Positions 6,830 through 59,791 of a stretch of 64,000 nucleotides of DNA are shown one piece after another (the first letter of the stretch is position 1; every line of letters starts with the position of its first letter). The notes under the pieces are model-generated. The model was not told the DNA's origin. It saw only the letters and a program-made list of their open reading frames with translations, and did not search any database. The DNA is from Naegleria gruberi (taxonomy: Eukaryota): assembly GCA_000004985.1 (NCBI GenBank), contig GG738909.1; one strand, 5' to 3'. Made by a program: the position numbers and the translations under genes.

Positions 6830-8192
6830 TTATTCATCATCTTCGTCTTCTACATCAGAACTGGTGTCTTCATATCCACAAACGGTTTCATATTGTTCAT
6901 ATTCAAGAATTAAATCTTCGAAATTCCACTCAGCCTCATCCATTTCCATTTCGTCCATTCCTTCATTAAGGAAGTGTGAAAGATATGCCTTTCTTTTTAA
7001 TTGGTTTTTAAATGTGTCTCTAATTCTTTTGAAAGCCTGAGTTATGAAAGTAGCATTTGAAATCATTGAAGCAGAGCTGTTGAATTTACAGACAGGTGAA
7101 ATTGTTTCACATAAGGATGTATGAATACTGCTATGTATCCATTTGGAGAATTGAGATTCATTCTGTATTTTGATTTTTCCAGCACATTCTTCTATCATTG
7201 AAATATTCGAAATGGTACCTCTATAACAAATATTGCTAGTCAAGTATTTACCTTGTTGTGAATTGAGAGTAAGGAGATTATTTGATGAATCAAACAGATT
7301 TCTGGTTAAGGTTTCCAGAGTCGACTTGATTCCATTTTTCACATTCACTTCCATTTGTGATCTAGATATTGAGAAAAAGTGAAGCCTAGGATACGTAACC
7401 AGATTTGTTGCCAATTTTCTGTATGAAGAATTAAGACTCTGAGAAAATCTAAAAGGACTCGTGTACTCACACACCGATTGTGCTATTAAATCATTCAAAT
7501 TCTCATAGCCACAACTCTCCAGTTTAACTTCCTTCCTACAATACTGTTCCAAAGCCTGATTATCAAATAAAGTAACAAAAGTTGAAGCCAATAATGATTG
7601 AACTGAAAGTACAGAATTATAATAGGAAAGGGATCTACCTCCAAAACATTCTTCTGATGGCAAAACTGAAGTTGTGCCTATAAACTTTGATGGATAATCA
7701 TCAGAGAGGTGAGTAAGAATTTTTGAACCGAGTCCTGATCCAGATCCACCAATTATTGAATGAAAAACCTGAAATCCATCCAAGTAATCACATTGTTCAA
7801 TTCTCCTTCTTACTTGATCCATAATTTTCGGCTCAAGTAAGGATCCATCAGTGTAATATCCATTTCCAAATGAATTTCCATTCCCACAATTACCAAAGGT
7901 TGCAAACTTTGATTCCAATAACTTCTCATTAGACAGCAGTATCGAATTGATTGCCTCACTCTCCAAATCAGCTCATCACCACTCTCGGCACAAATTTACC
8001 ATCCTCTTTCTCATGAAGGAAAATATTACAATGTTCTTCAGCTATAGCTTTTAATTGATCGGATGAGGTTGCTGAATCAATCTTCTCTCCTGTAAATATA
8101 TTGAGGTGATGTTCCCTCATTAAATGTTTCCAAAATGATGACCCGATTCTATTACCACATCCTCCTATACAAATACTAACAATATCTTTCAT
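6830..8192 (-). CDS. Divergent tubulin-family protein whose reading frame is interrupted near 7967-7971 (possible pseudogene or sequence error)
   Basis: The N-terminal ORF (ATG at 8192..8190) reads MKDIVSICIGGCGNRIGSSFW...GKFVPRVVMS and stops at TGA 7970..7968. The next frame continues ADLESEAINS...GGSGSGLGSKILTHLSDDYP...EGMDEMEMDEAEWNFEDLILEYEQYE. This aligns collinearly with tubulin: the GGCGN P-loop region, the GGTGSG signature and the acidic C-terminal tail. Removing a single nucleotide at agc|tga restores VVM(S/A)DLESE, which matches PRA(I/V)LVDLEP. Confidence 0.7.
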
Positions 8193-23207: not shown

Positions 23208-26095
23208 CTAAACATGAATAACTATAGAATTGGGAGAATTAACATTATCTGAATTATCATTTTGTTCCTGTTGTGATGATTCCAATATTCTTGAGGAGAG
23301 AGAAGACGAAATGTTCAATGGAGCAACTCTACTTGTTGGTAACGTTGGGGAACTGTCATTGAAGGAATTGCTCGATCCTATTATTGAGTTACCTCTCGTT
23401 GATGAAATTAGAGAAGCTGAGGAAAGAATGGATGGAGAATCCAATGATGATTCAATACTACTTGATAACTCTGAATTGTCATGACAAGAGCTCAGTAAGG
23501 TCTGATCATTGGATAAATCATATTGAAGTGAAAATCGAAGGAATGTATCTTTTAAGAGCATGGATTTTACAACCTTTTCTATGCTTATGAAAAGATCTAT
23601 TTGTCCGTAACCTTCTGCAATGTTTTTAACTTCCTTTTCTCTGACTTTTTGAGAAATGTTGATTGCATAAGGTGAATTATCACACAAATACTTGTTGAGA
23701 ATCTCTGCTTGCTTCTTTGCTCTATCTGATGTTTTCTTAATCGACTTGTATAGTAATATATCTTCCAAAAAGAGAATATTCTCTTCAGAACATTCCTTTT
23801 CACAGAATTTCTTTCATCATGTTCAGATTTTACAAATTAATAAACAGGACTTACCTTAAACATTTCTCTTCCGTTCGAATTCATCATTACCCTTTCAAAT
23901 TCCATACCCAACTTGAAATCTTGCATTCGTTGCTCTTGAACTTTCACGGCTTGTCTCAGTTCCACTTGTTCACTCATATTTCTGGCCACAATAACATAAA
24001 CCTGATGAATATTTCCCTCGTCCAACATGATATCCACTTTACTGGTCGATACACTCACTGGAATTTCTGAGCCAAGATTGGAGAGTATGGTGGTGTCCCA
24101 TCTAGACTTGGTCTCTGCCATATTTTCCAAATATTTCAGAATTTCATCATTGAGATGATTTGGATTTTCAATGGAATTGTATAGAAACGCCATATCACTA
24201 CCATTATTTTGTGAATCCATCAGAGGTGCTTTCTGTAAATACTGGCTCACCAAATTGAATTGTTTCTTTAAAATTCTACTCTCAAATATTGTATTGAAAT
24301 TCACAATTTGGGCGGTCTTTGAATCGACAGAGAATATGAAATCATCGATAGAGTTCATGATAACTCTAGATTTTTGCTCAGATAGTGATGTCTTTTCCAA
24401 TAATCGTTGCATGAGTTCATTGTCCTCACTGAGAATGGTCTGGGTGGCATCGAGGGCATCCAACATGTTATTGACATCTTCACATAGCATTCCCAATTCA
24501 TCAGAACCAACATTTGGAACTCTTTCCTTGATATTTGTCGAATTGGTTATAATTCTTACAGCATTTGTCAATTTTAACAATCTTTTCAACACTACAATTT
24601 CCAAAAATATAATTAATCCAATAGAGAGGAGAATAATCATTACTGTCATTACAGACCAAGTAATTAGAAATGATGTAATACCAAGAGTATAGACCTCTCT
24701 ATCAAAATCTGTTCTTATAACCATCGATCCATCACTAATCAAATCATAATACTCTTGAAATATTGAAATCTTACTTCCGTATAGAATGGCCTTATTGGAA
24801 CAGAGTCTATTCTCGAATAATGGTAGATTGAGATCATTCTCATCAACAGAAAATTGTTGAATAAACTGTCCAGTATTATTCGACCACAAACTCTGTGAAG
24901 AAACTCCCTCAATTAAAGTTTGAGTCCAGGATGAGGTTTTTTCTGAAATTATTTTCGAAGTCTGCTGACTAGTCAACTCTGTTTTTGATTTATCACTTGA
25001 CAGAGACTTGGCAAATAAATATCTGTCTCTACTACTCCTCAAATTATATGGTGTTAAACAATATTGACTTCTGTCTGACATGTCAGTAAAAAATTCTCTA
25101 GTTTGATATCTTCCAAATATCATAATTCCATAAGTCTTTTGATAATCTGTATCTTGAATTGGCATTGCAGATAATAGCAATAAATTTAACAGTTTAGTCT
25201 GAGTGGTAATGTTGAAATTTTGATTCAATCCTGAAACTGTTATATTCGAAACAATTAAATCAAATAAACTCTCTGAAGGTGAATAAAATCCAACATTTCT
25301 AGTTGATGGATTTGACATACCATCCATCAAAACTCTTCCTATTGAGCTAGCTTGAAGATTTATCAAATCATTTGGAATCTTATCTAGTCTATATCCATCA
25401 AAACATCCCAATCCACTCAAATAAGTTCCATTCATATAATAAATCAATGCAAAATTAACTCTACTTGTCAATTGATATTGACAATGCAAATAATAATTTA
25501 AAAATTGATTTGCCAAAACAGTTGCATTAGAATTCGTATTCGTTACAACATCAATTGCATCTTTGAATGCACCATATTCGAATAGACGTGATGTTAGAAA
25601 GTAAAAATCATCAAATAAAGTTCTACTTGTTCGTTTGGCTGATTCCATGGCCATTGAATTTTCCACACTTAAAAAGGAAATATTAAAGGCTGTCAATAAA
25701 ATTGCTAAACAAGTTGCCATCAAGAGGAGAAATAATAAGATTAGAATAATTGTTATTTTAAATCGAAGACTTTTGTGAATTAAAACTGATTGACTGTCAG
25801 GTGTCTGAGCTGAGGAGGATGGATCCATGACATTTAAATTATTGTCATCATGATTATCTAAATGTATGGATTTTTCTATTAATTCTTCCGAGAATTGAGT
25901 TAATTTTTTAGAATTTCCAAATAATTCAAAACTATTCGAATCGTTTTCATTAGAATATTTTATATGATGAACATTTTTAATTCTTTTCAAAGAAAGTAAA
26001 TTATTCTTGAAGGTTTTTCGAAACTTCGTACTGTTAACTGTTGTTGGAAGAATTGTTTCTTGTTGGTTCTTTTTACTTCCTTGTTGGTTTGACAT
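23208..26095 (-). CDS. Membrane receptor with two TM helices, a Cache-like extracellular domain and a cytoplasmic RGS domain. Exons: 23855..26095 and 23208..23810.
   Basis: ATG at 26095 (MSNQQGSKK...). TM1 is IILILLFLLLMATCLAILLTAF, followed by an ectodomain of about 330 aa with Cache-like strands (YMNGTYLSG..., ...LISDGSMVIRTDFDREVYTLGITS). TM2 is WSVMTVMIILLSIGLIIFLEIVVL, followed by a HAMP-like helix. Exon 1 ends ...EMFK|GTAAGT and a 44-bp intron ends in AAAG. Exon 2 starts KFCEKECSEENILFLEDILLYKSIKKTSDRAKKQAEILNKYLCDNSPYAINISQKVRE, a canonical RGS core. Both exons are in frame (2241 + 603 nt). Confidence 0.75.
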
Positions 26096-26267
26096 TTTTT
26101 TTGACTCTTCGATTGCCAGGTCAGACAAGTGACATACACTAATGTAATTGTACGTTTATTACTATTCTTAAACTATTGATGATGAATTGAGAGACTAATG
26201 GATTCCAACTTATCATAACTCATTGATGAACTTGTATTTACAATTTATTTTCGAACTTTTAATTCAT

Positions 26268-28919: not shown

Positions 28920-29064
28920 TTTTTTTGAGTTCAATTATTACATTGAAAGTTTAATCTTTAAATAGCTATTATTGCGATAAGGCGATTGTTGAATATTATG
29001 TACAGTTTGATGAGAACAAATAGTAAATATTAATTATTATTAAATAATATATTTTTTTACTTGT

Positions 29065-34231: not shown

Positions 34232-36436
34232 GGTTAAATATATGATACAGGTAAGATATTGTAATAGAGGAGAGAGGGATGGTTGAATATTTTCTAAATT
34301 AGGTCAACAATAGCAATAGTGATATGACAAATTTGTACAAAAAGTAGTTTGATTAAACGACGAACGCAAGGAGGGTGTGAAATGTTGTTGCACTAAAGTT
34401 CAATAGTAGTGTGCGAGTAGTGGTAGTGGTGGAATATGAAGTAATGTATCGAGTCAATTTGACAGTGAGGAATTGATGAATATTGATGTGAAGAATTGCA
34501 ACAATATTAACTGTTATGTGATTGAAAGGTAGAGTAGTACAGGGAAGGTAGAATTTACAAGTTAATCCAAAGTAGTGATAAAGGCTTGTTTCAAAAACAG
34601 TTGAATAAATAGTCAGACAGAACAATATTATAACGAATGCTGATAGGGAGGTCTCGAGTGTGGATACAACAACAGATATGAAGGTTGACAATGATTTAAC
34701 GTAGTCTCGTAATATCAATTACCACAAAAACTGTTGTGTCTTGCAAGGAAGGTTGCAGCAACAAGGCTGTATTATTGTTTTGTAAATTGTGTCGTGACAA
34801 TGTGTTATTTTCAATATATATTATTAGGCCACACACCACAGAGAGTATTGGCTGATGTTGTTGGTTGGTTTTTTTTTAGTGGAAAATGAGGTATGAACCC
34901 TCTGAGAACAATTCCACCCACTGCCAGCTGCAACACGACCTCTCCTCACACACAAGAGGCTTGTTAGCGGCGTGTTGCTGCGAGTTTCTTGTTGGCTTCT
35001 TATTGTACAGCTGTGAAAAAAAGGCACGTTGTGAGTTGTGATGAATGATTTTTCATGTCTCTTGCTTGGCACCAGTTGCGTTCAAATGAGCTCGATGCAA
35101 ATACGGAAAACAAAAATTGCGAAGCGTCACAATAGATTTTCATTTGATGCAAATTGACAGATTTGAAAAGATGAGATTTAAGAGCTTTGTTGAATATATC
35201 TCTCCCTAGTCAATAATTAATTGAATCAAATAATATTTTGCATTTTACTCTGTTTAATGTGAATATGAAGAACTTGTGATTTCCTTAATCTGATGGTTGG
35301 TGTGGTGGTGAGGCACTGATAAATCACAGTAATATTAATTGACTACTGTTCTTAAAAATGGTTAAGGTTGCCGGGCTTTGAATTTTGTATAATTAAGGAC
35401 TTTCACACAATGCAGTCCTTATTCAGTTTGAATGGATTGTATCTCCTCAAATCCTTGATTTTCACAAGTGAAGAACCCTCAAAAGAGCACTATTATGTTC
35501 TTCTCTCCAAACTGTTATTGTCAATATTGTAAACTAGGCAAGTGAATGGTTAAGAGTTTTGGTGAAGATTCCCATAATTTTGTAAATTACGTGTCATTGC
35601 AATTCGTTCTTTACATGTTGTGTGTTGAATAGGAACACGAATGAAATTCATGTGATCTTTTTTTAACTTCATTAAGACCTTTTCAACATGGAAGAAAGCT
35701 GACAGGAGTATACAACGATGGCTTTGATTTTCGTTAAAAAGCTCTTTCAACTCCGAATCAAATAAAAGCTGCCAATTCTGTACCATTGTTTTTCACTTGT
35801 TAAAGTGGCAGTTACTACTGTTGGCGAGTGTACAATTAATCAGACAACAATCGGGAAAGGGGTTTTTAACTGTAGTTGCCTCAATAGTTGTAACAACATC
35901 TGCTGCTGTTGTTCATGCAAAACATTCCGATGCTCTCAATTGGATTGTAGGAAGATTTGAATGAATTACTGTTGTTGTTGTTTTTAATTCGTTGCATTAT
36001 TGTTGTAATAGAAGGAATGGAGGTGGTACCTTGGCAAAACTCTAACGAACATTTTTCAAAGAACAATTATGAAGAAAATTAATTGAATGTAACATTCCGA
36101 GAAACTTGAGTCCGGTTAGTTGGAGTTCGATTCGAATCAATCTTGAAAATGTTGTTTTCAATATTTTGTTGAACATGGTGGTTGGGATGGTATTAATGGA
36201 ATTGGTAATAAGGTTGACTTCTTTTTGTTTGTCGTGCTTGCAGCTTCTCAATCTGTTTGGTCAGTTCCTCAAAGTATCAAAATGATTCGTTTGTTTTTAA
36301 GGAAAAAATAAGTTTAGCCTCAATAGTGTTATCGGATTCTGATTTTCTAACACTTTCTTGGAAGAAAATAAAGACACAATTATTGGAAACTCAATTTAGG
36401 AGTTGAACCTTTTCACCCAGTTAAATTTCCATCTTG

Positions 36437-38171
36437 ATGCTAAACAAAGTTCATTACAAAAAAATAAGCAAAAATCAAAGGCTTTGCTTTTCATCACAAC
36501 AACATACTCGAGTTTTCTACAACAATCAAAATAATTTATTAACAATGGTGACTAAAAGATCGCTCCGAAACAAGGAAAATGATGATGAAGAAAATACCAA
36601 AGTAAAGAATAATAATTCATCATCAATTACATCAAGTTCAAAGAAGGATAAAAAGAAACAATCAAAGAAGGAGGAAAAAAAGAACAAACAAATTGCTAAA
36701 CAGCCAGTTGTGGAAGAAGATTCTGAAGATTCAAATTCTGAAGAGGAAGTTCAAAAACCAACAAAATCAAAGAATTCTAGACTAGTTACGGAATTGTCAA
36801 AGAATGTAAAATTGGATTCAAAGGAAAATGATGTTTCATCTCAATTGGCTACTGTTAGATTTTTGAGATCAAATGGTGAGAAGGGATTGGAAAAATTAGT
36901 AACAAATTATCATTTGAAAGTTAAGAAACATTCACACTTCTCTAATTTATTTTCATTGAAATATGACATGCTGAAGAGTCCATTCTCTACTGATATTGTA
37001 CAGGAATGCAGAGGATTAGTTTTAGATAAGGATAATAATTATAAGGTTGTTTGCTATCCTTTCAAAAAGTTCTTTAATTATGGAGAAAAGTACAATGCCT
37101 CAAAAGATATCAATTGGAAGGAAGCTAGAGTTTATGAAAAAATTGATGGAAGTTTATGTACACTTTATTATTATGGGTGAGTAGCTTGCTATATTTGCAA
37201 TTTCTAAATTTGTAAGTGATATGTGGTGGATTTCAACAACAGGAACTGCCAGTGGTAATGGCTATCTCCACAATCAAAAAAGAACATTTGACAAACTCTT
37301 TTGGGATTTATGGAAAAAATTGGGTTATCAATTCCCAGATCCTAAGGAGAATAAGATTTACATGTTTGAACTCTTTTCGAATGAACATACAATCATTGTA
37401 AAGCCAGATAGAGATAGAATCGTGTTATTGGGAGTGAGGGATTTAACAACATTGAAAGAGGAAGATCCTGTACCAATTGCAGAGCAAATGAAATGGGAAT
37501 GTGTACAATCTTACCCACTCTATACTTCTGTAGGAATGGTTTTCGATGCAGCCAGAAATTTGGATCCATCCAAATATGAAGGATTTGTTGTTTGCGATTC
37601 CAATTTCAATAGAATCAAGATTAAGAGTCCACAATATGTTGCACTTGCCCATTTAGTGAATAAGGATGATGAAGATGATTCAGAAACTCAAGATTCTCCA
37701 TCCCAAATTCAATCAAAGAAGAGAAAAATGTTGCAAATTGTTCGAAGTAATGAATCATCAGAGTTTTTGGCTTACTATCCAAACCTGGAAGAGATACATA
37801 CAAGTGTTAAATCACAATATGACAAGTTGATTTCCATCACTAAGGAGATAGCATCTGACATCAAGGGAAAGTATTATAGTAATAACGAGGAAGAGACATC
37901 GAATAAGGACGCTATTGTGAACTTTATTCAAAGAAAGTGTCAAACTGATTATTCAAAATTATTAATTTCAATTTTGGATAAACAGAATCCAAACATCAAA
38001 GTTGATGAAGAGGAGATGAAGACAAGCAAAAAGTTTTCAAAAATCGTTAAGCAAACAATGACAATTGCTGTTTATCAAGAGATGTTTGGAAACAAGTCAT
38101 GTGAGCAAGTTTATACAACGGTAGAAATCTCTGCTCTTTTTGATTTGTTAAATTTTGCTTTCTACTTGTAA
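36437..38171 (+). CDS. Putative ATP-dependent RNA ligase (Rnl2/Rnl5-like nucleotidyltransferase) with a basic NLS-like N-terminus. Exons: 36437..37176 and 37217..38171.
   Basis: Exon 1 ends ...EKIDGSLCTLYYYG|GTGAGT; the KxDG(S/T) motif matches the ligase lysine-adenylation motif I. A 40-bp intron ends in TAAG. Exon 2 (DMWWISTTGTASGNGYLHNQ...IYMFELFSNEHTIIV...) is in frame, total 1695 nt. The start may instead be the ATG at 36545. Confidence 0.55.
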
Positions 38172-38409: not shown

Positions 38410-39867
38410 TTATTTAAATCTATTGTATTGTCTTTTAAAGTCAAATCTGAAATTTCTCAACATTTCATATCTTGTTTGAAGTGGAATATCATGATGTGAT
38501 TTAAAATTGTCATGTTTTCGAATAAGTTTTTCGGCAAGATACTTTTCCAATTCATCAAATATTGATGGTTGAATTACCTTTCCAATAGATTCTTCTGATA
38601 ATTTACAAAGTTGCGAATATTCCTTGTGAGAAGAAATCAATTTGGTAATTTCTATTACTATCTGATTCAGTTCTTGCTTTAAATTAATTTCTTCTTGTTC
38701 TATTGATTGTAAAGTATTATAAGTAATCATAGAACTTGTTGAAGTACTTGTATTCAAATCAACAATTGATGATGACATACTTGAAGTGTCACTGTCATCA
38801 GTCAAACTATTAAGTGAACCATTTAGAGATGTATTTACACTACTATTATTGTTATTAGCAATCAACTTGGAAACATATGCCAAAGTATTTGAAATTTCCT
38901 TAAATCTTTGAATCAATTCCAATAAATGATGGAATTTTGCACTTTTTGAATTGACCAAATAATTTTTAAATGATTTTCTAGAAAGTGTATCATTCATAGT
39001 ATTCAAAACTAGTACTATTTGTGTTTTTCTCAATTTTCTACTCATTGAAATATCCTTTTTAATCATTAAAGTAAATGTCAATACCACAATTGGAATTGCT
39101 ATTAACAAACAAACTCCAATAATTGTTAAACTTGTAGTGGAAGCTTGTTGAGAAATATTTAAATTATTTTGAATGTTTGCTTTGATTTTAGTTAACATGT
39201 AATTCCAACCATTTGCAAATTGACGTATGGCAGAATTCACATTTGCTGACAGGAGTAATGAAGAAGCAGCTGATAAATTTCCCTCCAAAAATATATCTAC
39301 TATTTCTTGATGTAAATTTAATAAGGAAATATTCTGAGCAGTTATATTATATTCATTTTGAATTGTATTGGAAATATCAGAATCTACCAAATTTAGTAAT
39401 TTTCCAATACTTTGTTTAAATATATCCTTTCTAGTTACCCAATCATGAATACTTGCATTATGTGAACCAATTACACCTAAATTAATATCATTAGTTGTTA
39501 ATTGATATTGATAACTCATATCATTATACGAAACTAGAGTTTCCATAATTGGTTTATTCACAACTGTATATGAATAAATAGTCATACTTCCAATTACAAT
39601 AAAAGAAATAATATTAATTATCATTCCTAATAATAATAATAATCTTACACAATCACATTCTAATACTGTACCAAAACATGTCCTTATTTGGATGGTACTA
39701 ACAAATGACTTGCTATTTATGGATTTGGATATTTTAGTAGTATTAGATTTTGGTGACTTGATACTTGTAATTGTACTTTTAATATGTTGAGGAGGTTTTA
39801 CTTCTTGTTGACAGGTGGCAGTTGACTTGTCAAGTGGTTGAGTAGATATCTTATCAAATGATGACAT
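38410..39867 (-). CDS. Two-TM receptor-like protein with a divergent cytoplasmic RGS-like domain and a C-terminal coiled coil
   Basis: TM1 is LLLLLGMIINIISFIVIGSMTIY, followed by an ectodomain of about 150 aa. TM2 is LTIIGVCLLIAIPIVVLTFTLMI, followed by LNTMNDTLSRKSFKNYLVNSKSAKFHHLLELIQRFKEI (an F..FL...S...F...L.....F RGS-like pattern) and a coiled coil. The ATG at 39867 sits in an aaaaaATGtca context; an alternative ATG lies at 39921. Confidence 0.55.
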   Translation of the reverse strand: MSSFDKISTQPLDKSTATCQQEVKPPQHIKSTITSIKSPKSNTTKISKSINSKSFVSTIQIRTCFGTVLECDCVRLLLLLGMIINIISFIVIGSMTIYSYTVVNKPIMETLVSYNDMSYQYQLTTNDINLGVIGSHNASIHDWVTRKDIFKQSIGKLLNLVDSDISNTIQNEYNITAQNISLLNLHQEIVDIFLEGNLSAASSLLLSANVNSAIRQFANGWNYMLTKIKANIQNNLNISQQASTTSLTIIGVCLLIAIPIVVLTFTLMIKKDISMSRKLRKTQIVLVLNTMNDTLSRKSFKNYLVNSKSAKFHHLLELIQRFKEISNTLAYVSKLIANNNNSSVNTSLNGSLNSLTDDSDTSSMSSSIVDLNTSTSTSSMITYNTLQSIEQEEINLKQELNQIVIEITKLISSHKEYSQLCKLSEESIGKVIQPSIFDELEKYLAEKLIRKHDNFKSHHDIPLQTRYEMLRNFRFDFKRQYNRFK

Positions 39868-40196
39868 TTTTTCTTTGTTTTTTAATTTGTTTAATAGAAT
39901 AATTTGCATCTGATATGACATTATTATTGAGAGATGACAGAATGATGTAAAGCATGGACGCAATCCAATTCTTAATCGGCAATTATAATAAGATTTTGGT
40001 AAAGAGCTACATGAAAGGTATTGATACAAGATATTAAACTTGTTTTTTAAACAGAAGGTCTATAAACTGTTAGGCAAGTCTAACTTTATTAATTATTTGA
40101 TTAGTGACGTTAAACTTTGTTAGATTTGATTGTTGCCGAATTTATTACAAATAGATAGTTGGTGGAGAGGAATCAATAACTGCGTTAAGCGAAGTA

Positions 40197-41894
40197 ATGG
40201 ATAATGCCGGACAAATAAGTCCTCGTAGACTTGGAGTTCAACTGTTGTCACTACTCAAAAAAATGTCAGAATCAAGTACAACTGCTAGTCCACAGCCAAT
40301 AAGTCTTAATGTCATATCTCCATCTACAACAAACATTGAATTGATAGAAAAGAATGTAGATATTAGTGGAGTTCTGTCAGATGCCACCTCAAATCCTCAT
40401 GAAGATGACAATGACAGTGTAATTGCAGATATTTTCGATGATATGGCATTCAATCAACCAATAGATAATCAAATAGAAGAACCAATAAGCCATCCACAAA
40501 TTTCCAAATCAAAAAACAAATTTCTAAAAAAGGTAATGTTTGGCTTGGATAGAAAAACAAGTACTTGTTGTTCAACTCAATTTAGTTGTATTTCTTGTTT
40601 ATCCATGTTAGCCCTACTTCTTAATATTGCATCTCTATTAGCAATCATTGGTTTATCAATAGCTTCAAATGTCAGTTATCAATCAGTCAAAGTTGTTGAC
40701 GTAATGTCACTTGTAACTGAGGCCACTAACATGCATACAACAATGGGTTCTAGAGTGAGAGAAGTATCCTATAATATCTATGGATATGTACCTTCCTCAG
40801 TTGTCAGATCATTTTACACCTCTTCAAAATCAACTTTGTTAAATGATTTGAAAAATTTTACAAAGATTTTGCCACCAAATGAATTGAAAATGTTAAATTC
40901 GATTGTTGATTCGAATTTTACAACAGTACCTAATTCAAAGTTATGGGAAACTGTATTGAATTTGATTAGTTCTTCAAGTACAGGAGGTGGTGGTGGTCAA
41001 CCTCCAACAGGTAATGGAACTAGTCCAGTAAATCCACAACCATCAAGAAATTCAACAAATTCTGGATCAATGACAAATTCAGTGAATACTACTGAATTGT
41101 TAGCAGCTCAAAAATTATTAGAATCTGAAGCATTTATTATTAGTGAAAAAGAAAATACGAATAATTTTGATCATTTTCTTGGTCAATTGATACAATTATG
41201 TTGGGATTCTCATAATTTAGCCAGAAGTACACTCATTGCATGTTTAGTTTTGATTTGTGCTTCGATAGCCCTTGTCATTCCATTTGCTGTTTTAATTTTC
41301 CTAATTGGGTTGATTAGTTCAAGCAAAGATGAAAAGAAACTTTTCAAAGCAAATACTATTTTACTATTCGAAACAATGGAGAGTCAAAACCTAAGACCTT
41401 TGTTTGAAAAATTCTGTATGAGTGCAGGTAGAGAACGTCAATTCAATTTCATATCCAAAACCAGAGATTATTCACAGCTCTGTAAAAGATCCTTGGAATT
41501 ACAAATGAGAACATTCGAAATTACTCAAGATATTCTAAAGGGAGGCGAATTAATAGAAAAGCCAAATGCTCTTACTTTGAAACAAGTCAATCAGAATGAA
41601 AAGTTTCTTAAGGAAGTTGAATATATGAAACAACAAGTTGCATTTGAATTATTAGAATGTATGGATATGAATTATGATATGGGAATTAACATGAATCAAA
41701 TTAATTATGATGATTTGATTCATCAAATAGATCAGTTTAATAATAAGGAAGATGATTATCAGATTCTTGATATTTTACCAGTTGATTTATTTGAAAAGTG
41801 TGAACATGAAGTTGTTCAATCATTGATAGAAGTGCATAATTATTTTAAGCAAACTGATGACTTTGTCAATGCTGTCTCAATCATTTATAAATAA
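40197..41894 (+). CDS. Two-TM receptor-like protein with a divergent cytoplasmic RGS-like domain; paralogue of 38410..39867 transcribed head to head
   Basis: ATG at 40197. TM1 is LSMLALLLNIASLLAIIGLSIA, followed by an ectodomain of about 200 aa. TM2 is LIACLVLICASIALVIPFAVLIFLIGLI, followed by LLFETMESQNLRPLFEKFCMSAGRERQFNFISKTRDY, which aligns to the RGS N-terminal helices (F..FL..EfSeENl.F...veefk). The C-terminus is helical. Confidence 0.55.
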   Translation: MDNAGQISPRRLGVQLLSLLKKMSESSTTASPQPISLNVISPSTTNIELIEKNVDISGVLSDATSNPHEDDNDSVIADIFDDMAFNQPIDNQIEEPISHPQISKSKNKFLKKVMFGLDRKTSTCCSTQFSCISCLSMLALLLNIASLLAIIGLSIASNVSYQSVKVVDVMSLVTEATNMHTTMGSRVREVSYNIYGYVPSSVVRSFYTSSKSTLLNDLKNFTKILPPNELKMLNSIVDSNFTTVPNSKLWETVLNLISSSSTGGGGGQPPTGNGTSPVNPQPSRNSTNSGSMTNSVNTTELLAAQKLLESEAFIISEKENTNNFDHFLGQLIQLCWDSHNLARSTLIACLVLICASIALVIPFAVLIFLIGLISSSKDEKKLFKANTILLFETMESQNLRPLFEKFCMSAGRERQFNFISKTRDYSQLCKRSLELQMRTFEITQDILKGGELIEKPNALTLKQVNQNEKFLKEVEYMKQQVAFELLECMDMNYDMGINMNQINYDDLIHQIDQFNNKEDDYQILDILPVDLFEKCEHEVVQSLIEVHNYFKQTDDFVNAVSIIYK

Positions 41895-42152: not shown

Positions 42153-45100
42153 CTATTTCTTATTTCTGGTTGATGATCGTGTCTTTCGTGGTTTCTCTTC
42201 TTCATCACTACTAGTATCATCAAAACTTTCTTGTTTCTTTCTTCTTCGAGTGGTAGTTTCCTTTTTTGATGTTTCCTTCTTTTCAAAGAATTTTGCATAC
42301 TGAATCTTGTTATCATCACTCATAAGATCTTGAACAGTTTCACCCTTATTATTTTTTAGAGATAGATCTATTACTTCGAAAATAAAATCACAGCTGCGTG
42401 ATTCTAAAGCATAAAAGGCTGCTGTTTTCAGTTCATTGTCTTGAGCATTTAGTGCATCTTGTCTGTTAACTGTTGAAAGATAATTAATCAAATCTTTCAC
42501 TATGACATCTTTGTCGGGATAGTAATTAGGTTTTTGACATGCAAAGTGAATAAGAGTTTTTCCTGTATCGTCACATTTGGTTGTAATCCAAGGAATCAAA
42601 ATATCTTTGCTCAAATCTGAATTAATGAGAATATTCTTTTTCTTTCTTCCTGTTGTATCTTCAAGTACAATATAAAACAATAGATACATTAATCCTTTCC
42701 AATAGCATATATCTAATAGACTGAAGTGGTGGTGCTTGTGGTTTTGTTTCCTTGGAGTGTTTTGTTTGGACCAAGCTAACTTGGCTTGAAACACAGTTTC
42801 CTCTAAAATGTTTAGCCAACCATTATTGTGGCAACAGTTTGGTGTGTCTTTAATTTTTTCTTCATTGTTTATAGCAATCTTGAAACGTGTACTAAACATC
42901 TTAAACCTCTCCTCAAGAGTTAAATCAGAAAAAAGAGATGCAATTGTTTCTGCCATTTCAATTTGTCCATCCTTATTCCCAAATCTATGTTTTCTTTCAA
43001 CAATTACACCAATTAGTATTTGCAAAATCTCTTCCTTTGTAAAGTCATGTGTATATGAATTATCAGAAATAATAAAATAACAAATGTTAAAATGGTTTGA
43101 TTCAAATGCTAACCGAAAATGTTTGATACTCCATTCTTGTTTTGTGGTAATATACATATTTCCTGCATCAAAAAGTCCTCTTTTTGCCAACTCATCCAAA
43201 ATGGATGTACCATCTTTGAATGGCTCACTATAGAGATTATCTAAAATACTAAGAGAAGATTCATCGGAGAAGATTTGATGAATTTGTTTAAGAATTTCAG
43301 TGGTTTCCATAATTACTGCTAGTTGGACAATATTAAGATTGCCATAAAATTCATCTTCATGTCTGAATGAAGCAATAATTGTGGCAATATCTGTAAAATT
43401 TGGTGGTTGGTACCGAAATGCTGTTAGGGAGTGATCAAGTTTAATACCAAGAATACCTTTTAAATATGAAAAATCTAATGCCTCGGAGGATTTGCTTGAA
43501 ATGACTGAGTAATAGAGTGCATCTGTTTTTTTGTTTGGAATATCAATAATATTTTCCAGTAGTTTTGCAGGGATGAGAGGATTATCTGAGTAGAAGATTT
43601 CATGAATATCAGAATGGGAATTATGTCTATGATGGGAGCACAATGATAATAAATATAAGAGTGGTGAAATGGGAGTACCCTTAACAATACAAATCTTGGT
43701 CAGTGTATCTTCAAAATTATCAAAATATTTGAAGATTGTTCTTAAGTTTTCCAAGTTTGGATTGATAATAGAATTAAATAGTTGCATTAACAATAAAGCT
43801 CTGTTGCGATCAAGATTACCCTTCTCATAATATGTATCAGACAATTCTGAAAGAGTCTCATTTAAATTACATCCTCTAACAAGTAGATTTTCTAGTAAAT
43901 CAAGTGTAGAAATCTTTTCATCACAGCCAAAATAGAAATGTGAATTTGGTTCATCTGAATCGAGTCTTTCTATTACGTTGGTAAGGAAGCTTTTGTTGTT
44001 ATAGCGTTTTGTCAATGTTTCTTCTGAAATTGAGTCAATAAGTGCTGTAACGTCAGTATCTGAGTTAAAGTGACCTAAAAAGTAAAACAAAGGAAGATTT
44101 TCATCTTCATCAATAGCATTAGCATCAACTCCTAACTGGATTAATTTGCTAACTATTCCTCTTGCTTTAGAGCACAAATTGATTAATTTGTGCAGCAAGT
44201 TTTGATTCTTTTCAAATTTCAATTCATTAATTGATAAACCATATTTTGAATACGCTTTTCCAAATGCATCAATTGTGGTTAATAATTCATTATTCTCAAT
44301 ATTTCTTTCAATTTCAATTCTTTTGATTAAACGTTCTAAAGGATTATAACCCTTATTATTTTTCATTTGAAAATATTCTACTGGTACTGCATCAATAAGA
44401 GCTATCAGGAGTGTTAAATATTTAAAAAAAGAATAAACTACTTACATGGAGAACAAGGATGTATATGAATGAGATTATTTCCTGTTGTTGGACAAACAAA
44501 CTTGACATCACAACCAGCCTTAATCAAGGATGAAATAATATTTTCATCAATAGTGTATTCATTATTGCTAGCACCTGTCAAATATGAATGTAAAATGTTT
44601 AAATTCATTTCATCTCCATTCACAATACCTTTTACATCACCTAATGTAATAATAGATGGATTAAGAGTACATAAAAATTCAATAATTTCTGGTTGATGAG
44701 TGGATTTACTTCTCTTAATGAACAATAATAATGGATTGATTTCTTCATCACATACAAGTGGAAAATTAGATTGTTCAAATAATATTTTAAACATTTTAGG
44801 ACTGGAAGTACGAGATAATACTTGAGAAATAATATTCCAATCAATATCCATTGGAGATAGTAGATTTTTGAAAAATTGTTTTTCATACATGTAATCAATG
44901 ATTTCATCATTTTCTATATAAAGAATTTGAGAGTAAGAAGCAAGTAGAGGTGTACCATAGCCTCTTTCCACATGTTTTACATTCTCTTCTAAAATAAAGT
45001 CAATCAATGCTTTGCTATAAAGAGGTCCTGGTAATAATAGAATGTTCAATCTCTTAAGAGAGAAGTGTTGTTCCTTAACAAGGTATTTGAATAAATTAAT

Positions 45101-56498: not shown

Positions 56499-56683
56499 TT
56501 TTTACAATAGAATTAATAACGTTTCTGAGAAACGTGATGACAAATTGAAAAGAAAAAATCCCATCTTGTAAATAACTATTTAACCAGGAAATCCGATACT
56601 TTTAATAACGTTTGCAAAAAAGAAAACAATACCAATTCCTTATTCTTGTTGTCTTCATTCTCATTCATTCATATGTCAAAAAA

Positions 56684-59600
56684 ATGAAACCAATCACTTT
56701 GTGGTTGATTTGTGCATTTCTCATTTCTATTGTTCATGGTTCTCTCAAGATTTATAATGGGGAACCAGTAAATGAACACATTCCTTTCATTGTGAGTTTA
56801 AAGATACCAAATGATTTGTGTGGAGGAAGTATTTTGAATGAACGCTTTATTCTTACCGCTGCCCATTGTTTTTGGTTTGCCAAAGAATGTGAAGATATTA
56901 TAGTGGGTGCTGGTTCTAATATTCTGGACGCTCCATTACAACAAAGAAAAACACCTTTTCATAGGGATCAGTATGTGCCACCTACATTCGATGCGAAAGG
57001 AAAATGTTTATTCTCCGATCTAAGAATTGTTGATCTTGGAGCTGGTAATGAATTAATATTTGACGGTACAGTTTCACCAGCTTTATTAGACACTAATGGT
57101 CCCACTGTGGGTGCGAGCGTTACTTTTGCTGGATGGGGTATTAGAAATGAAAACTCTCCTCATTCACAAAAACTGTTCAAAACAACAGAGATTATTCAAG
57201 ATTATAAGACTTGCCCTATTACTGATGAAAATTTTTTGCATTGTACACCAAATGAAAGTAGTGGTCAATTTTGTGCATGGAACGAAAAAAGTATTTCTTG
57301 TCCAGGTGATTCTGGAAGTCCAGTATTTTATGTAGCTAATGACAAGTCCAAAATAGTTACTGGTGTGGTTAGTGCTACCACTGCTTATGAAAAGAAAACA
57401 TGTTTGCAACCTGGCCAGAAGGATTTACACACATCAGTAGCAAAACACACTAATTGGATAATAGAATATACAAATCAAAATACGTTATGTAAGTTTTCCA
57501 AATGTTACTTTGACTATATATATTTAAAAGATGGGTGGGGAAGAATGGATGACCACTTTTTATTCTGGAGAGAAAACCCTTCACAAGACGATTCCTTAAC
57601 CAATCCAAAGATTATTAAGATGAATCCCTCTGAAGGTGTGATGCCAATATTGAGAAAACTGAGACCAACAAAAGGAAAGTTTGCACTTGGTATCTCCGCT
57701 TCAAATAGACTATATTTATGGGGTAGAGGAAACCAATATCAATTAGGAAATGGGAAGAATTCTGACATTCTCCATCCAACTGTTCATAATTTTGTTCTAG
57801 AAAATATTTTAGATGCATGTGGGGGTTATTCACATTCACTAGCCCTTAGTACTGATGGTAAGGTTTATGAATGGGGAACACTCGCCGACGCTATTAAGAA
57901 GACACCAACTGTAGTTGTTTTTCCCAATAATGACAAAATCAAAAGTATATCCTGTGGCCACAGTCACAATCTTGCAGTTTCACAAGATATGAAAAGATTG
58001 TATTTTTGGGGTAAAAATCAATATGGAGAGGGAGGGAATATTAAGGGTGCCTGTGCATCAAATCCTAAAGCATTCATCGAGCGTCCAATCCTTATCTCAA
58101 TCGATAATAATGATTTTACCATTATTAGTATTTGTGCAGGAGATTCAACCAGTTATGAAGTAACATCAAAGGGACATGTTTATTCTTGGGGTTATAATGA
58201 ACAATCTCTTCTAGGAACAGGTATTTCTAGTATTTGTATTGGAATACCAACAAAAATATCTGTGGAAAATGCAGAAAGAATGTATTGTGGTGATCAAATG
58301 TGTTTTGTAAAAGCTGTTAACAATGTGTACGGATGGGGAATTAACAAGTTTAATGAGATAGATGAATCTGGACTTCCAATTATAAGCCCCATCATTACAA
58401 ACATTGAAAGCGCGTCTGATATTACGATTGGAAATGATTTTGTTTTATACAAAATATCTGATAGTTGGTATGGCAAAGGAAATAATTATATGGTATCGGG
58501 TCCTTCTAACTTTAACAAAGGAGTTGATATTGAATGCACAAACTATTATTGCTTTGTTTTTGGTCAATCAGTGAAACTGAGAATTGATGTAACAGTTTGT
58601 TATTTTGTTTCATTAGCATTGAATATCATATTTTTTTGTTTAGGCTTAATATGTATCAAGAAAAGGTCAACGAAAATGAGATTATATACACCTTGTGTTT
58701 TTCCATTTTTAATGTTATGTTTGAGAATTTATCAAATTTATTTCAAGTTCAAATATAATCAAAATTATGGACTGTTTGAGTCTGGTTTAGGTGACTATGA
58801 AATTTTATTGATTTTATTCTCATTATACACTCCTGTAGTATTAAGAAACAGTATTTTAGTCAATTTAACTGAATATCTTGAAAAAGTGGTAAACAGATTT
58901 ACCATTAGGCTTTGGAAAATATTTACCTCAGAGTTGTTATTTATTGGGTTTATATTATTGGCCTTCTTTGGAATGGCATGTCCGATTTTTCTCAACCTCA
59001 AAGATAGACGTATTGTTATTATTGCTATTATAATTTTTTTTTTTATTATGAATATTTTATTGCAATATGTAATACCTTTTATTCAATTTTGTTTGCATAT
59101 TAAGAGGAGAAAATCAATTATCAACTTTTTTGATTTTGATGATCCGCTCCACTTAAGAAAGGAGTATTTGAGTGCCTTTTTGACTGTTGTGGTTAACCTA
59201 TCTTTTGGATTTATTCTGACACCCTTCAGCGTTATCTGGCAGGTTAATGTTATTGTTCTACAACCAATTTTTTTTATTTTCTCAATGGGAGGATTAGCTT
59301 GTGCGATAGAGTTTATTAATAATTTCAGGAAAATATCAAATGCTTCATTGAATGAAGTGCTCATCATTCCACGTTTGTTTGAATTGTTGAAGCAATATGC
59401 AAAAAGAGAGCTGACTTTTGAAAATGTCGTTTTACATGAAAAGATACAGGAAATAAGAGAAATGGTGGACGAAAGAGAAGTTTTTGAAAAGCTAAAAGAG
59501 GTCAATCGAGATTTTTTCTCAACATTTTCAAAATATGAGGTTTCAATCTCGAAAAATTCTAAAACAAATTTGAAGAAATGGTTCGGGGAGATAGGCGTGA

Positions 59601-59791
59601 TAGAGGATTCAAAGATAGTCCAATGGAGCAAAGAGAGTCTTTTAGAAACAGCAGCAACAAGACGAAATTCAAGAGTATTATTTTATTTTACCTCCACATT
59701 CACCTCTATCATTGAAAAGGACATACAAAGCAACTTGGGTGCTACGTTAGAACGATTAAAACACACACGAGAGTTTAAGATGAAAGTTTAA
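56684..59791 (+). CDS. Chimeric receptor: signal peptide + trypsin-like (S1) serine protease + RCC1-like beta-propeller + 7-TM region + C-terminal RGS domain, 1035 aa
   Basis: The ATG at 56684 (aaaaaaATGaaa) gives the signal peptide MKPITLWLICAFLISIVHG. The S1 protease hallmarks are LCGGSILNERFILTAAHCF and CPGDSGSPVF. Four or more RCC1-type repeats follow (YLWGRGNQYQLGNG, VYEWGT, LYFWGKNQYGEGG, VYSWGYNEQSLLGTG, VYGWGINKF). Seven hydrophobic helices lie between about 58590 and 59330. The C-terminal segment LNEVLIIPRLFELLKQYAKRELTFENVVLHEKIQEIRE...FSTFSKYEVSI is RGS-like. The ORF has no stop across 3108 nt. Confidence 0.75.
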   Translation: MKPITLWLICAFLISIVHGSLKIYNGEPVNEHIPFIVSLKIPNDLCGGSILNERFILTAAHCFWFAKECEDIIVGAGSNILDAPLQQRKTPFHRDQYVPPTFDAKGKCLFSDLRIVDLGAGNELIFDGTVSPALLDTNGPTVGASVTFAGWGIRNENSPHSQKLFKTTEIIQDYKTCPITDENFLHCTPNESSGQFCAWNEKSISCPGDSGSPVFYVANDKSKIVTGVVSATTAYEKKTCLQPGQKDLHTSVAKHTNWIIEYTNQNTLCKFSKCYFDYIYLKDGWGRMDDHFLFWRENPSQDDSLTNPKIIKMNPSEGVMPILRKLRPTKGKFALGISASNRLYLWGRGNQYQLGNGKNSDILHPTVHNFVLENILDACGGYSHSLALSTDGKVYEWGTLADAIKKTPTVVVFPNNDKIKSISCGHSHNLAVSQDMKRLYFWGKNQYGEGGNIKGACASNPKAFIERPILISIDNNDFTIISICAGDSTSYEVTSKGHVYSWGYNEQSLLGTGISSICIGIPTKISVENAERMYCGDQMCFVKAVNNVYGWGINKFNEIDESGLPIISPIITNIESASDITIGNDFVLYKISDSWYGKGNNYMVSGPSNFNKGVDIECTNYYCFVFGQSVKLRIDVTVCYFVSLALNIIFFCLGLICIKKRSTKMRLYTPCVFPFLMLCLRIYQIYFKFKYNQNYGLFESGLGDYEILLILFSLYTPVVLRNSILVNLTEYLEKVVNRFTIRLWKIFTSELLFIGFILLAFFGMACPIFLNLKDRRIVIIAIIIFFFIMNILLQYVIPFIQFCLHIKRRKSIINFFDFDDPLHLRKEYLSAFLTVVVNLSFGFILTPFSVIWQVNVIVLQPIFFIFSMGGLACAIEFINNFRKISNASLNEVLIIPRLFELLKQYAKRELTFENVVLHEKIQEIREMVDEREVFEKLKEVNRDFFSTFSKYEVSISKNSKTNLKKWFGEIGVIEDSKIVQWSKESLLETAATRRNSRVLFYFTSTFTSIIEKDIQSNLGATLERLKHTREFKMKV

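What the first reader, a model, noticed from the sequence alone, without database searches (positions are those of the whole stretch)
38410..41894. Head-to-head pair of paralogous two-TM receptors with divergent RGS-like domains sharing a bidirectional promoter of about 330 bp
Genes 38410..39867 (minus) and 40197..41894 (plus) share the same layout: TM, ectodomain, TM, RGS-like helices, coiled coil. They are transcribed divergently from a common intergenic region. Together with 23208..26095 and 56684..59791 this gives four receptor-RGS genes in 64 kb, pointing to a lineage-specific expansion.
Basis: inference. Interest (0 to 1): 0.6.

Follow-up and report, generated by a model that had tools for sequence, protein, structure and literature searches.

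The report
Paired two-pass receptors with degenerate RGS domains
Two neighbouring, oppositely oriented Naegleria gruberi genes encode membrane receptors that join a bacterial-chemoreceptor-like outer sensor to a G-protein-regulator (RGS) fold that has lost its usual G-protein contact residues, and the same 'a + b' gene pair recurs in at least five loci, suggesting the two proteins work together.

Summary

New points: p1 and p2 keep the RGS core but only 0 and 1 of the six canonical G-alpha contact residues, while 30 of 57 relatives keep all six. They are not each other's closest paralogs. They belong to two clades, a and b. All five b-type genes with readable upstream DNA have an a-type partner head-to-head, 250-380 bp away. 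The RGS expansion itself is already published. The promoter and the suggested heterodimer are untested.

The parts
38410..39867 (-). Gene p1 ('a-type' 2TM receptor with degenerate RGS fold), 485 aa plus stop
   Evidence: ORF. 100% identical to the N. gruberi predicted protein P0002. Family C-terminal HMM 1.3e-15 and ectodomain HMM 1.5e-8. Ortholog in L001 at 32% identity, tblastn 6e-57.
39652..39867 (-). p1 N-terminal cytoplasmic tail (residues 1-72), S/T/K-rich, ending in the juxtamembrane T-C-F-G...C-D-C motif
   Evidence: Sequence. A TC[CF] motif occurs before TM1 in 27 of 49 family members. Palmitoylation is inferred only.
39589..39651 (-). p1 TM1 (residues 73-93)
   Evidence: Hydropathy peak of 2.6.
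39124..39588 (-). p1 ectodomain (residues 94-248), helical sensor homologous to the family ectodomain; 5 N-glycosylation sequons
   Evidence: Leave-out ectodomain HMM 1.5e-8 over residues 100-230. Sequon count.
39061..39123 (-). p1 TM2 (residues 249-269), followed by 6 K/R in the next 15 residues
38458..39060 (-). p1 RGS-fold domain (residues 270-470), with 0 of 6 canonical G-alpha contact residues (KFSRKN instead of ENNDSR) and a 43-aa N/S/T low-complexity insertion (residues 338-380 = 38728..38856)
   Evidence: Canonical-member HMM 1.7e-9 over hmm positions 3-195 of 205; a-clade hhalign 98.2%, E 3.4e-14. Residue table. No Pfam RGS hit.
39868..40196 (.). Shared 329-bp spacer between the two start codons (28% GC); presumed bidirectional promoter region
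   Evidence: Sequence. Spacers of about 250-380 bp in four other a/b pairs. No significant shared motif. Promoter function is untested.
40197..41894 (+). Gene p2 ('b-type' 2TM receptor with degenerate RGS fold), 565 aa plus stop (annotated start M23 at 40263)
   Evidence: ORF. 100% identical to N. gruberi P0001. 60 relatives in the exhaustive phmmer search. AF2 model with mean pLDDT 79.
40197..40586 (+). p2 N-terminal cytoplasmic tail (residues 1-130), disordered, ending in the T-C-C motif
   Evidence: pLDDT below 50 for residues 1-103. Motif.
40587..40649 (+). p2 TM1 (residues 131-151)
   Evidence: Hydropathy. AF2 helix 131-163.
40650..41243 (+). p2 ectodomain (residues 152-349): four long helices forming a four-helix-bundle-like sensor, with a disordered G/S/N/P-rich loop (residues 259-297 = 40971..41087); 6 N-glycosylation sequons
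41244..41306 (+). p2 TM2 (residues 350-370), part of one continuous predicted helix (311-395) running from the last ectodomain helix into the first RGS helix
41319..41876 (+). p2 RGS-fold domain (residues 375-560), with 1 of 6 canonical G-alpha contact residues (RQNEVY; only the Asn128 equivalent is kept) and an extended helical hairpin (residues 413-489 = 41433..41663)

Best explanation
p1 and p2 are two members of a family of two-pass receptor proteins whose named members all come from Naegleria and Willaertia (Heterolobosea).

Each protein has a disordered cytoplasmic N-tail and TM1. Then comes an extracellular helical bundle that looks like the four-helix-bundle sensor of bacterial chemoreceptors and histidine kinases. 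TM2 follows and runs on as one helix into a cytoplasmic RGS-fold domain.

In the canonical majority of the family the RGS domain keeps all six G-alpha contact residues. Those members are most likely ligand-regulated 'receptor GAPs' for Naegleria's self-activating G-alpha subunits, like the 7TM-RGS proteins of plants and Naegleria but with a different sensor.

p1 (a-clade) and p2 (b-clade) keep the RGS core but have replaced 6 and 5 of these six residues. They are therefore probably not conventional GAPs. Their RGS fold more likely acts as a binding or scaffolding (RGS-homology) module, or has retuned its specificity.

Every b-type gene with readable upstream DNA has an a-type gene head-to-head 250-380 bp away, in five loci including two in N. 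gruberi or a near-identical strain. The two genes are therefore most likely co-expressed from the shared spacer and act together, plausibly as an a/b heteromer, since four-helix-bundle sensors work as dimers.

Shown here: homology, fold, residue loss and pair conservation. Inferred: topology, sensor function, loss of GAP activity, co-expression and heteromerisation.
For: - Family and architecture: 60 relatives, nearly all TM1, then a 135-190 aa ectodomain, TM2, then a C-terminal domain of about 200 aa. 40 of 60 match Pfam RGS, best E 7.8e-12. In P0009, P0011 and P0012 the RGS match covers the region aligned to p2.
- p1 and p2 membership: leave-out HMMs. Canonical-only HMM gives p2 3.7e-26 and p1 1.7e-9; the same HMM finds RGS4 at 3e-5 and the window's true RGS gene at 2.8e-11; none of 1000 shuffles scored; hhalign 99.9% and 98.2%.
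- Contact residues: 30 of 57 relatives keep ENND[ST]R; p2 has RQNEVY and p1 has KFSRKN, and their orthologs are also degenerate, while core residues F76, F149 and F168 are kept.
- Pairing: a/b pairs in the window, L001, L003, L005 and L006. The a and b partners fall in separate clades.
- Biological frame: Naegleria G-alpha subunits self-activate and are switched off by TM-RGS proteins (PMC9283941).
- Topology: K/R cluster after TM2 and sequons in the ectodomain.
Against: - No experiment or expression data support this. GAP loss is inferred from six alignment positions taken from mammalian RGS4-Gi contacts. Naegleria G-alpha subunits are divergent and could use other contacts. p2 keeps the Asn128 equivalent.
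- No shared motif was found in the five spacers.
- The heterodimer idea has no direct support.
- The NJ tree is crude and has long branches.
- Three of the four extra pairs come from unnamed metagenome or SRA contigs, so the number of independent species is uncertain.
Confidence: 0.6

Rival explanations
1. p1 and p2 are fully active receptor-GAPs. Their RGS domains have co-evolved with particular divergent Naegleria G-alpha subunits, so the replaced 'contact' residues reflect changed specificity rather than lost activity. The head-to-head arrangement only provides co-regulation of two independent homodimeric receptors.
For: The RGS fold and hydrophobic core are intact. p2 keeps the Asn128 equivalent. 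N. gruberi has a lineage-specific diversification of G-alpha subunits (PMC3971589), and Naegleria RGS domains are selective among G-alpha subunits (PMC9283941). A G-alpha gene lies next to the p2 ortholog in L002.
Against: 5-6 of the six residues are changed, often non-conservatively: E87 to R or K, D163 to R, R167 to Y or N. The substitutions also differ between orthologs (p2 RQNEVY, P0003 NNTNVT, P0004 NSTPLD), which looks like relaxed constraint at these sites rather than a new conserved interface. In the same family 30 of 57 clusters keep all six, so the Naegleria G-alpha/RGS interface is generally canonical.
Confidence: 0.25
2. The adjacency is a historical accident of an old inverted duplication. 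It has persisted only because the spacer is short, and it has no functional meaning. The two proteins act independently, or one of them is decaying.
For: No shared motif in the spacers. p1 carries a long low-complexity insertion and has the weakest family scores. Gene order can persist by chance between close relatives.
Against: The arrangement survives at 32-37% protein identity between orthologs. It is found in 5 of 5 readable cases, including two separate pairs in N. gruberi or a near-identical strain, so the pair was duplicated as a unit. Both ORFs are intact, and the full-length architecture is conserved in orthologs.
Confidence: 0.1
3. The C-terminal domain is only a generic helical bundle that resembles RGS by chance, and the proteins have nothing to do with G-protein signalling.
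For: Pfam RGS does not hit p1 or p2 even at E<=10. Family profiles do not retrieve RGS chains from PDB sequences at significant E (RGS7 at E=0.59). hhalign of the family against a single RGS4 sequence is weak.
Confidence: 0.03

Closest known systems
Seven-transmembrane RGS proteins (Arabidopsis AtRGS1; Naegleria fowleri 7TM-RGS1-4, Bosch et al. 2022, PMC9283941)
   Same: A membrane receptor module fused directly to a C-terminal cytoplasmic RGS domain, in an organism whose G-alpha subunits self-activate and are controlled mainly by GAPs. Same genus. The window itself holds one such gene (56612..59791).
   Different: Two TM helices flanking a helical ectodomain instead of a 7TM bundle. The RGS domain carries an extended helical hairpin or low-complexity insertion. 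p1 and p2 have lost the G-alpha contact residues. The genes occur as conserved a/b head-to-head pairs.
Bacterial four-helix-bundle (4HB/Tar-type) sensor modules of methyl-accepting chemotaxis proteins and sensor histidine kinases (Tar, Tsr, PcaY, NarQ, HK9)
   Different: No significant sequence similarity. The host is eukaryotic, with N-glycosylation sequons. There is no HAMP or kinase/MCP signalling domain, and the output is an RGS fold. Homology versus convergence is unresolved.
GAP-inactive RGS-homology (RH) domains (axin, GRK2, SNX13/14/25, p115RhoGEF rgRGS)
   Different: No sequence relationship closer than to RGS domains in general. The domain context differs (no PX, kinase or DH-PH domains). 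The loss arose independently within a heterolobosean family whose other members are canonical.
The neighbouring 2TM / CHASE4-like / HAMP / RGS gene in the same window (23208..26128)
   Same: A two-pass receptor with a large ectodomain and a C-terminal RGS domain. The family profile hits its RGS domain at 8.5e-8.
   Different: Different ectodomain (about 325 aa, weak CHASE4 hit). HAMP plus a linker of about 180 aa lie between TM2 and RGS. The RGS is canonical (6 of 6 contact residues, Pfam 9e-18). It is not a member of the p1/p2 family ectodomain profile.

Membership tests
RGS domain superfamily (Pfam PF00615 / RGS fold) | Significant match to the Pfam RGS profile | tested here: not met
   p1 and p2, full length and as isolated C-terminal domains, give no RGS hit even at E<=10. 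40 of 60 family relatives do. The a-type relatives L001a and P0054 are sub-threshold, at 0.0019 and 0.00032.
RGS domain superfamily (Pfam PF00615 / RGS fold) | Homology to bona fide RGS domains shown by profile methods | tested here: met
   An HMM of 30 Pfam-type canonical relatives gives p2 3.7e-26, p1 1.7e-9, RGS4 3e-5 and the window's true RGS gene 2.8e-11; none of 1000 shuffles scored. hhalign probabilities are 99.9% (b-clade) and 98.2% (a-clade).
RGS domain superfamily (Pfam PF00615 / RGS fold) | Nine-helix RGS fold | tested here: met
Catalytically competent RGS GAPs (R4/RZ-like) | Conservation of the G-alpha switch-contact residues (RGS4 E87, N88, N128, D163, S164, R167) | tested here: not met
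   p1 keeps 0 of 6 (KFSRKN) and p2 keeps 1 of 6 (RQNEVY). Their orthologs keep 0-1 of 6. 30 of 57 relatives keep 6 of 6.
Catalytically competent RGS GAPs (R4/RZ-like) | Acceleration of GTP hydrolysis on a G-alpha subunit | not testable with these tools
   This needs recombinant RGS domains and Naegleria G-alpha subunits, as in PMC9283941.
Heterolobosean 2TM-ectodomain-RGS family (defined here) | TM1, 135-200 aa helical ectodomain, TM2, then an RGS-fold domain, with both soluble domains matching the family profiles | tested here: met
   ectodomain HMM p2 1e-9 and p1 1.5e-8; C-terminal HMM p2 8e-41 and p1 1.3e-15.
Bacterial 4HB_MCP / Tar-type sensor domains | Significant sequence match to 4HB sensor families | tested here: not met
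   Only two sub-threshold 4HB_MCP_1 hits in relatives (0.018 and 0.025) and none in p1 or p2. The ectodomain profile finds no sensor in PDB sequences.
Bacterial 4HB_MCP / Tar-type sensor domains | Antiparallel four-helix bundle inserted between two TM helices | tested here: inconclusive
7TM-RGS receptors (AtRGS1 type) | Seven transmembrane helices N-terminal to the RGS domain | tested here: not met
   p1 and p2 have only two hydrophobic segments each. The window gene 56612..59791 does fit this class.

The most novel reading that the evidence does not exclude
The a/b gene pairs encode obligate heteromeric two-pass receptors. A chemoreceptor-like four-helix-bundle sensor dimer is built from one a and one b subunit. 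Its RGS-fold domains have given up GAP chemistry and act as a ligand-controlled docking or sequestering platform for G-alpha or another partner. This would be a eukaryotic signalling device that joins bacterial-style transmembrane sensing to heterotrimeric G-protein circuitry, and whose subunit stoichiometry is enforced by a conserved bidirectional gene pair.
Probability: 0.25. Interest if true: 0.7.

Novelty: new variant of a known kind. Interest (0 to 1): 0.5.

Why it matters
Naegleria controls self-activating G-alpha subunits mainly through membrane-bound RGS proteins, and only the 7TM-RGS class has been studied experimentally (PMC9283941).

This analysis shows a second large receptor-RGS class that uses a two-pass, chemoreceptor-like sensor. 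Part of that class is invisible to Pfam, so published RGS counts (229 in N. gruberi) are underestimates.

A subset of the class has lost the GAP contact residues and is kept as conserved a/b head-to-head gene pairs. That gives a concrete, testable case of pseudo-enzyme evolution and possible heteromeric receptor assembly in a protist.

It also expands the list of candidate surface receptors in a genus that includes the lethal pathogen N. fowleri. Family members occur in N. fowleri, but no a/b ortholog was identified among the few N. fowleri proteins examined here.

Tried and rejected
- Word-indexed homolog searches with p1 and p2 found only the proteins themselves. The same tool with the C-terminal alignment A2 returned nothing at all.
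- phmmer of the p2 C-terminal domain, and profiles A1 and A2, against PDB sequences gave no significant RGS hit. The only results were a spurious opioid-receptor/lysozyme match and RGS7 at E=0.59.
- hhalign of A2 against a single RGS4 sequence was weak, although in the right register.
- The single-sequence AF2 model of p2 was unusable, with pLDDT 39.
- BLASTP of the window's true RGS genes against p1 and p2 was not significant, E 0.08-0.5.
- The ectodomain profile against PDB sequences found nothing relevant.
- The spacer motif search found GAGAGATG in 3 of 4 spacers, which is not above shuffled controls.
- The N. gruberi reference genome is not in the contig index. The second N. gruberi pair was therefore shown only through a 97%-identical metagenome contig (L003) and consecutive UniProt accessions.
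- Anantharaman et al. 2011 (Gene 475:63), which may already describe TM-RGS architectures in Naegleria, could not be read. No supplement is held for PMC3971589.
- Rejected: pseudogenes, because the ORFs are intact and orthologs are conserved. A prokaryotic or viral origin for the window, because of introns, eukaryotic domains and the N. gruberi identity. The weak PoNi_N Pfam hit in p2, which is below threshold and lies inside the RGS fold.
Full report
**Source and gene models.** The window is AT-rich (28-36% GC). Its ORFs match Naegleria gruberi proteins at 100% identity. p1 (38410..39867, minus strand, 485 aa) is P0002. p2 (40197..41894, plus strand, 565 aa) is P0001, which is annotated from M23 as 543 aa. 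Both are labelled 'predicted protein', with no precomputed Pfam domain. The start codons are 329 bp apart, or 395 bp with the annotated p2 start.

**Checking the observation.** Each protein has two strong hydrophobic segments: p1 residues 73-93 and 249-269, p2 residues 131-151 and 350-370. Direct BLASTP between them is weak. It gives E=5e-5 and 23% identity over 157 aa, spanning the end of the ectodomain, TM2 and about 70 residues beyond. Pfam finds no RGS domain in either protein, full length or as an isolated C-terminal domain, even at E<=10.

**The family.**
- An exhaustive phmmer search with p2 against 1.84 billion cluster representatives found 60 proteins at E<=0.001, 39 of them at E<=1e-10.
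- The members that carry names come from N. gruberi, N. fowleri, N. lovaniensis and Willaertia magna. The rest are unnamed SRA or metagenome assemblies.
- Almost all share one layout: TM1, an ectodomain of 135-190 aa, TM2, then a C-terminal domain of about 200 aa.
- When every member was scanned against Pfam, 40 of 60 matched RGS (PF00615), with best E 7.8e-12.
- In P0009, P0011 and P0012 the RGS match covers nearly the whole model (positions 5-116 of 117). It lies in the stretch that aligns with p2 residues ~390-558.
- UniRef already labels some members 'RGS domain-containing protein'.

**Do p1 and p2 belong?** I ran three tests.
1. HMMs built without p1, p2 and p2's close orthologs. The C-terminal profile scores p2 at 7.9e-41 (residues 375-560) and p1 at 1.3e-15 (residues 268-470). 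The ectodomain profile scores p2 at 1e-9 and p1 at 1.5e-8. The C-terminal profile also hits the RGS domain of the window's own bona fide RGS gene at 8.5e-8. None of 400 shuffled sequences scored.
2. A stricter bridge test. I built a profile from only the 30 members that keep all canonical contact residues, with the TM region removed. It scores p2 at 3.7e-26 and p1 at 1.7e-9, both end to end. It scores mammalian RGS4 at 3e-5, the window's HAMP-RGS gene at 2.8e-11 and the 7TM-RGS gene at 1.9e-4. None of 1000 shuffles scored.
3. hhalign of the b-clade and a-clade alignments against that canonical profile gives 99.9% (E 6e-35) and 98.2% (E 3.4e-14).

**Structure.**
- A single-sequence AF2 model was useless, with pLDDT 39.
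- With the 60-sequence alignment the p2 model reached mean pLDDT 79, and above 90 over most of residues 140-260 and 300-565.
- One predicted helix (311-395) runs from the last ectodomain helix through TM2 into the first RGS helix.
- Foldseek against the PDB puts the SNX13 RGS domain first (prob 1.0, TM 0.72 normalised to the target). RGS2 from its G-alpha-i3 complex also scores TM 0.72. Everything else is geometrically meaningless.

| Group | Hits |
|---|---|

At the sequence level there are only two sub-threshold 4HB_MCP_1 hits, in the ectodomains of canonical relatives (0.018 and 0.025). An ectodomain profile finds nothing in PDB sequences. So the protein looks like a Tar-type sensor, but membership of that family is not established.

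**The 'coiled coil'.** This is not a separate module. The family carries an insertion between the E-N-F...Y-K motif and the A-F-E-I-Y...V-N-I motif. In the p2 model it forms a long helical hairpin at residues 413-489. In p1 the insertion includes a 43-residue N/S/T-rich low-complexity stretch at residues 338-380.

**Divergence of the RGS domain.** I aligned RGS4 and the window's true RGS domains to the family. I then read the positions equivalent to the RGS4 residues that contact G-alpha-i1 in 1AGR (E87, N88, N128, D163, S164, R167; this residue list is from my own knowledge of that structure).
- 30 of 57 relatives keep all six (ENND[ST]R), and 3 more keep five.
- p2 has RQNEVY (1 of 6) and p1 has KFSRKN (0 of 6).
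- Their orthologs are just as degenerate, and they differ from one another: P0003 NNTNVT, P0004 NSTPLD, the L001 p1-ortholog ANEEIQ.
- The core positions F76, F149 and F168 are conserved throughout.

This pattern, with the fold kept and the interface relaxed, is what GAP-inactive RGS-homology domains show. De Mendoza et al. note that some RGS domains have lost GAP activity and become scaffolds (PMC3971589).

**The gene pair.** p1 and p2 are not each other's closest relatives.
- p1 groups with the L001 ortholog and with P0054. P0054 is in the same 90% cluster as N. gruberi NAEGRDRAFT_58095 (D2VFX8).
- p2 groups with P0003, P0004, P0005 and P0006.

Fetching contigs for relatives showed the same head-to-head arrangement four more times:

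| Locus | Source | a-type gene | b-type gene |
|---|---|---|---|
| L001 | SRA assembly | p1 ortholog, tblastn 6e-57 | P0003, 1e-78 |
| L003 | Metagenome contig | P0054 | ORF 97% identical to N. gruberi P0006 (D2VFX9; same 747-kb scaffold and consecutive accession) |
| L005 | Metagenome contig | ORF 1346-2626 | P0014 |
| L006 | Metagenome contig | ORF 3-1319, best hit P0054 | P0034 |

L003 indicates a second pair in N. gruberi or a near-identical strain.

In a neighbour-joining tree and in best-hit lists, the partners checked fall into two clades. p1, L001a, P0054 and L005a form the a-clade; the L006 partner was placed by best hit only. The b-clade contains p2, P0003, P0006, P0014 and P0034. 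The spacers are 329, at most 380, 337, 290 and about 250 bp.

All five b-type genes with readable upstream DNA have an a-type partner. P0004 sits 281 bp from a contig end, so it cannot be judged. Two non-a/b members, P0007 and P0045, have no family neighbour, although P0045's contig is too short to judge.

The spacers share no significant motif. Promoter sharing therefore remains an inference from geometry and conservation.

**The other 'receptor-RGS' genes.**
- 23208..26128 (minus strand) has a 44-bp intron at 23811..23854, inside the RGS domain. Once spliced it encodes 947 aa with two TM segments, a weak CHASE4 hit (0.0027), HAMP (2.8e-6) and a canonical RGS domain (9.3e-18).
- 56612..59791 (plus strand) has a signal peptide, Trypsin (4e-22), RCC1 repeats (8e-44), six to seven TM segments and an RGS domain. 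The RGS domain just passes the Pfam threshold when scanned alone, at 24.9 bits. This is the 7TM-RGS class described in N. fowleri (PMC9283941).

So the window does hold four TM-RGS genes, in three different architectures. The rest of the window is an ordinary mix of genes, with no G-alpha gene.

**What is already known.** N. gruberi was reported to have 229 Pfam RGS proteins, with RGS-TM fusions common across eukaryotes (PMC3971589). N. fowleri has 28 7TM-RGS proteins plus 79 other RGS proteins, and its G-alpha subunits self-activate and are deactivated by 7TM-RGS domains (PMC9283941).

I found no description of a two-pass, four-helix-bundle RGS receptor class or of paired degenerate members. 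The most relevant older paper, Anantharaman et al. 2011, could not be read.

**Verdict.** The expansion itself is already published. Four things are new:
1. Two Pfam-invisible proteins are assigned to the RGS fold.
2. A large heterolobosean 2TM, 4HB-like RGS family is recognised.
3. The G-alpha contact residues are lost in the a and b clades.
4. The a/b head-to-head pairing is conserved and has been duplicated as a unit.

The mechanism I propose is a co-expressed, possibly heteromeric receptor pair whose RGS folds act as non-catalytic modules. It is an inference, with moderate confidence.

Noticed in passing
window 23208-26128 (-), intron 23811-23854: A 947-aa gene combining two TM segments, an ectodomain of about 325 aa with a weak CHASE4 hit, a HAMP domain and a canonical RGS domain (E=9e-18 after splicing). 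The 44-bp intron splits the RGS domain. This is a bacterial-type sensor plus HAMP transmitter wired to a eukaryotic RGS output.
   Followed up: partly
window 56612-59791 (+): A 7TM-RGS protein with an unusual extracellular N-terminus: signal peptide, trypsin-like protease domain (4e-22) and RCC1 repeats (8e-44). These are followed by 6-7 TM segments (residues 664-899) and an RGS domain scoring 24.9 bits.
   Followed up: partly
L002 2373-3488 (-) and L004 1062-2534 (-): A G-alpha gene (PF00503) lies convergent to, and immediately downstream of, the p2 ortholog P0004. An arrestin gene (PF02752) lies upstream of family member P0007. This may be linkage of G-protein pathway genes or coincidence.
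   Followed up: no
window 39652-39700 (p1) and 40560-40600 (p2); family-wide: A conserved juxtamembrane Cys motif (T-C-C/F-G-x-x-E) lies just before TM1 in 27 of 49 family members. It is a candidate S-palmitoylation site on the cytoplasmic face.
   Followed up: partly
window 36434-37180 (+) and 37221-38171 (+): The first ORF ends with the N-terminal part of a T4-type RNA ligase domain (RNA_lig_T4_1, 1.2e-8). The second ORF follows after a 40-bp gap on the same strand. This is probably a single RNA ligase gene split by a short intron.
   Followed up: no
window 26268-28934 (-): An 888-aa protein with two AAA ATPase domains plus a Vps4_C-like end (AAA 1.4e-94). It is a Cdc48/NSF/Pex-type ATPase and an ordinary housekeeping gene.
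   Followed up: no
window 6830-7966 (-): A tubulin-family ORF whose match starts at position 53 of the Pfam Tubulin model. The N-terminal exon is probably separated by an intron.
   Followed up: no
window 42153-44366 (-): A 737-aa protein directly downstream of p2 (convergent). It has only faint ankyrin-repeat hits and a K/E/S-rich tail, and no family assignment.
   Followed up: no
tool behaviour: the search for homologous proteins with alignment A2 returned no hit at all, although family members are present in that database. The cause is unknown.
   Followed up: no
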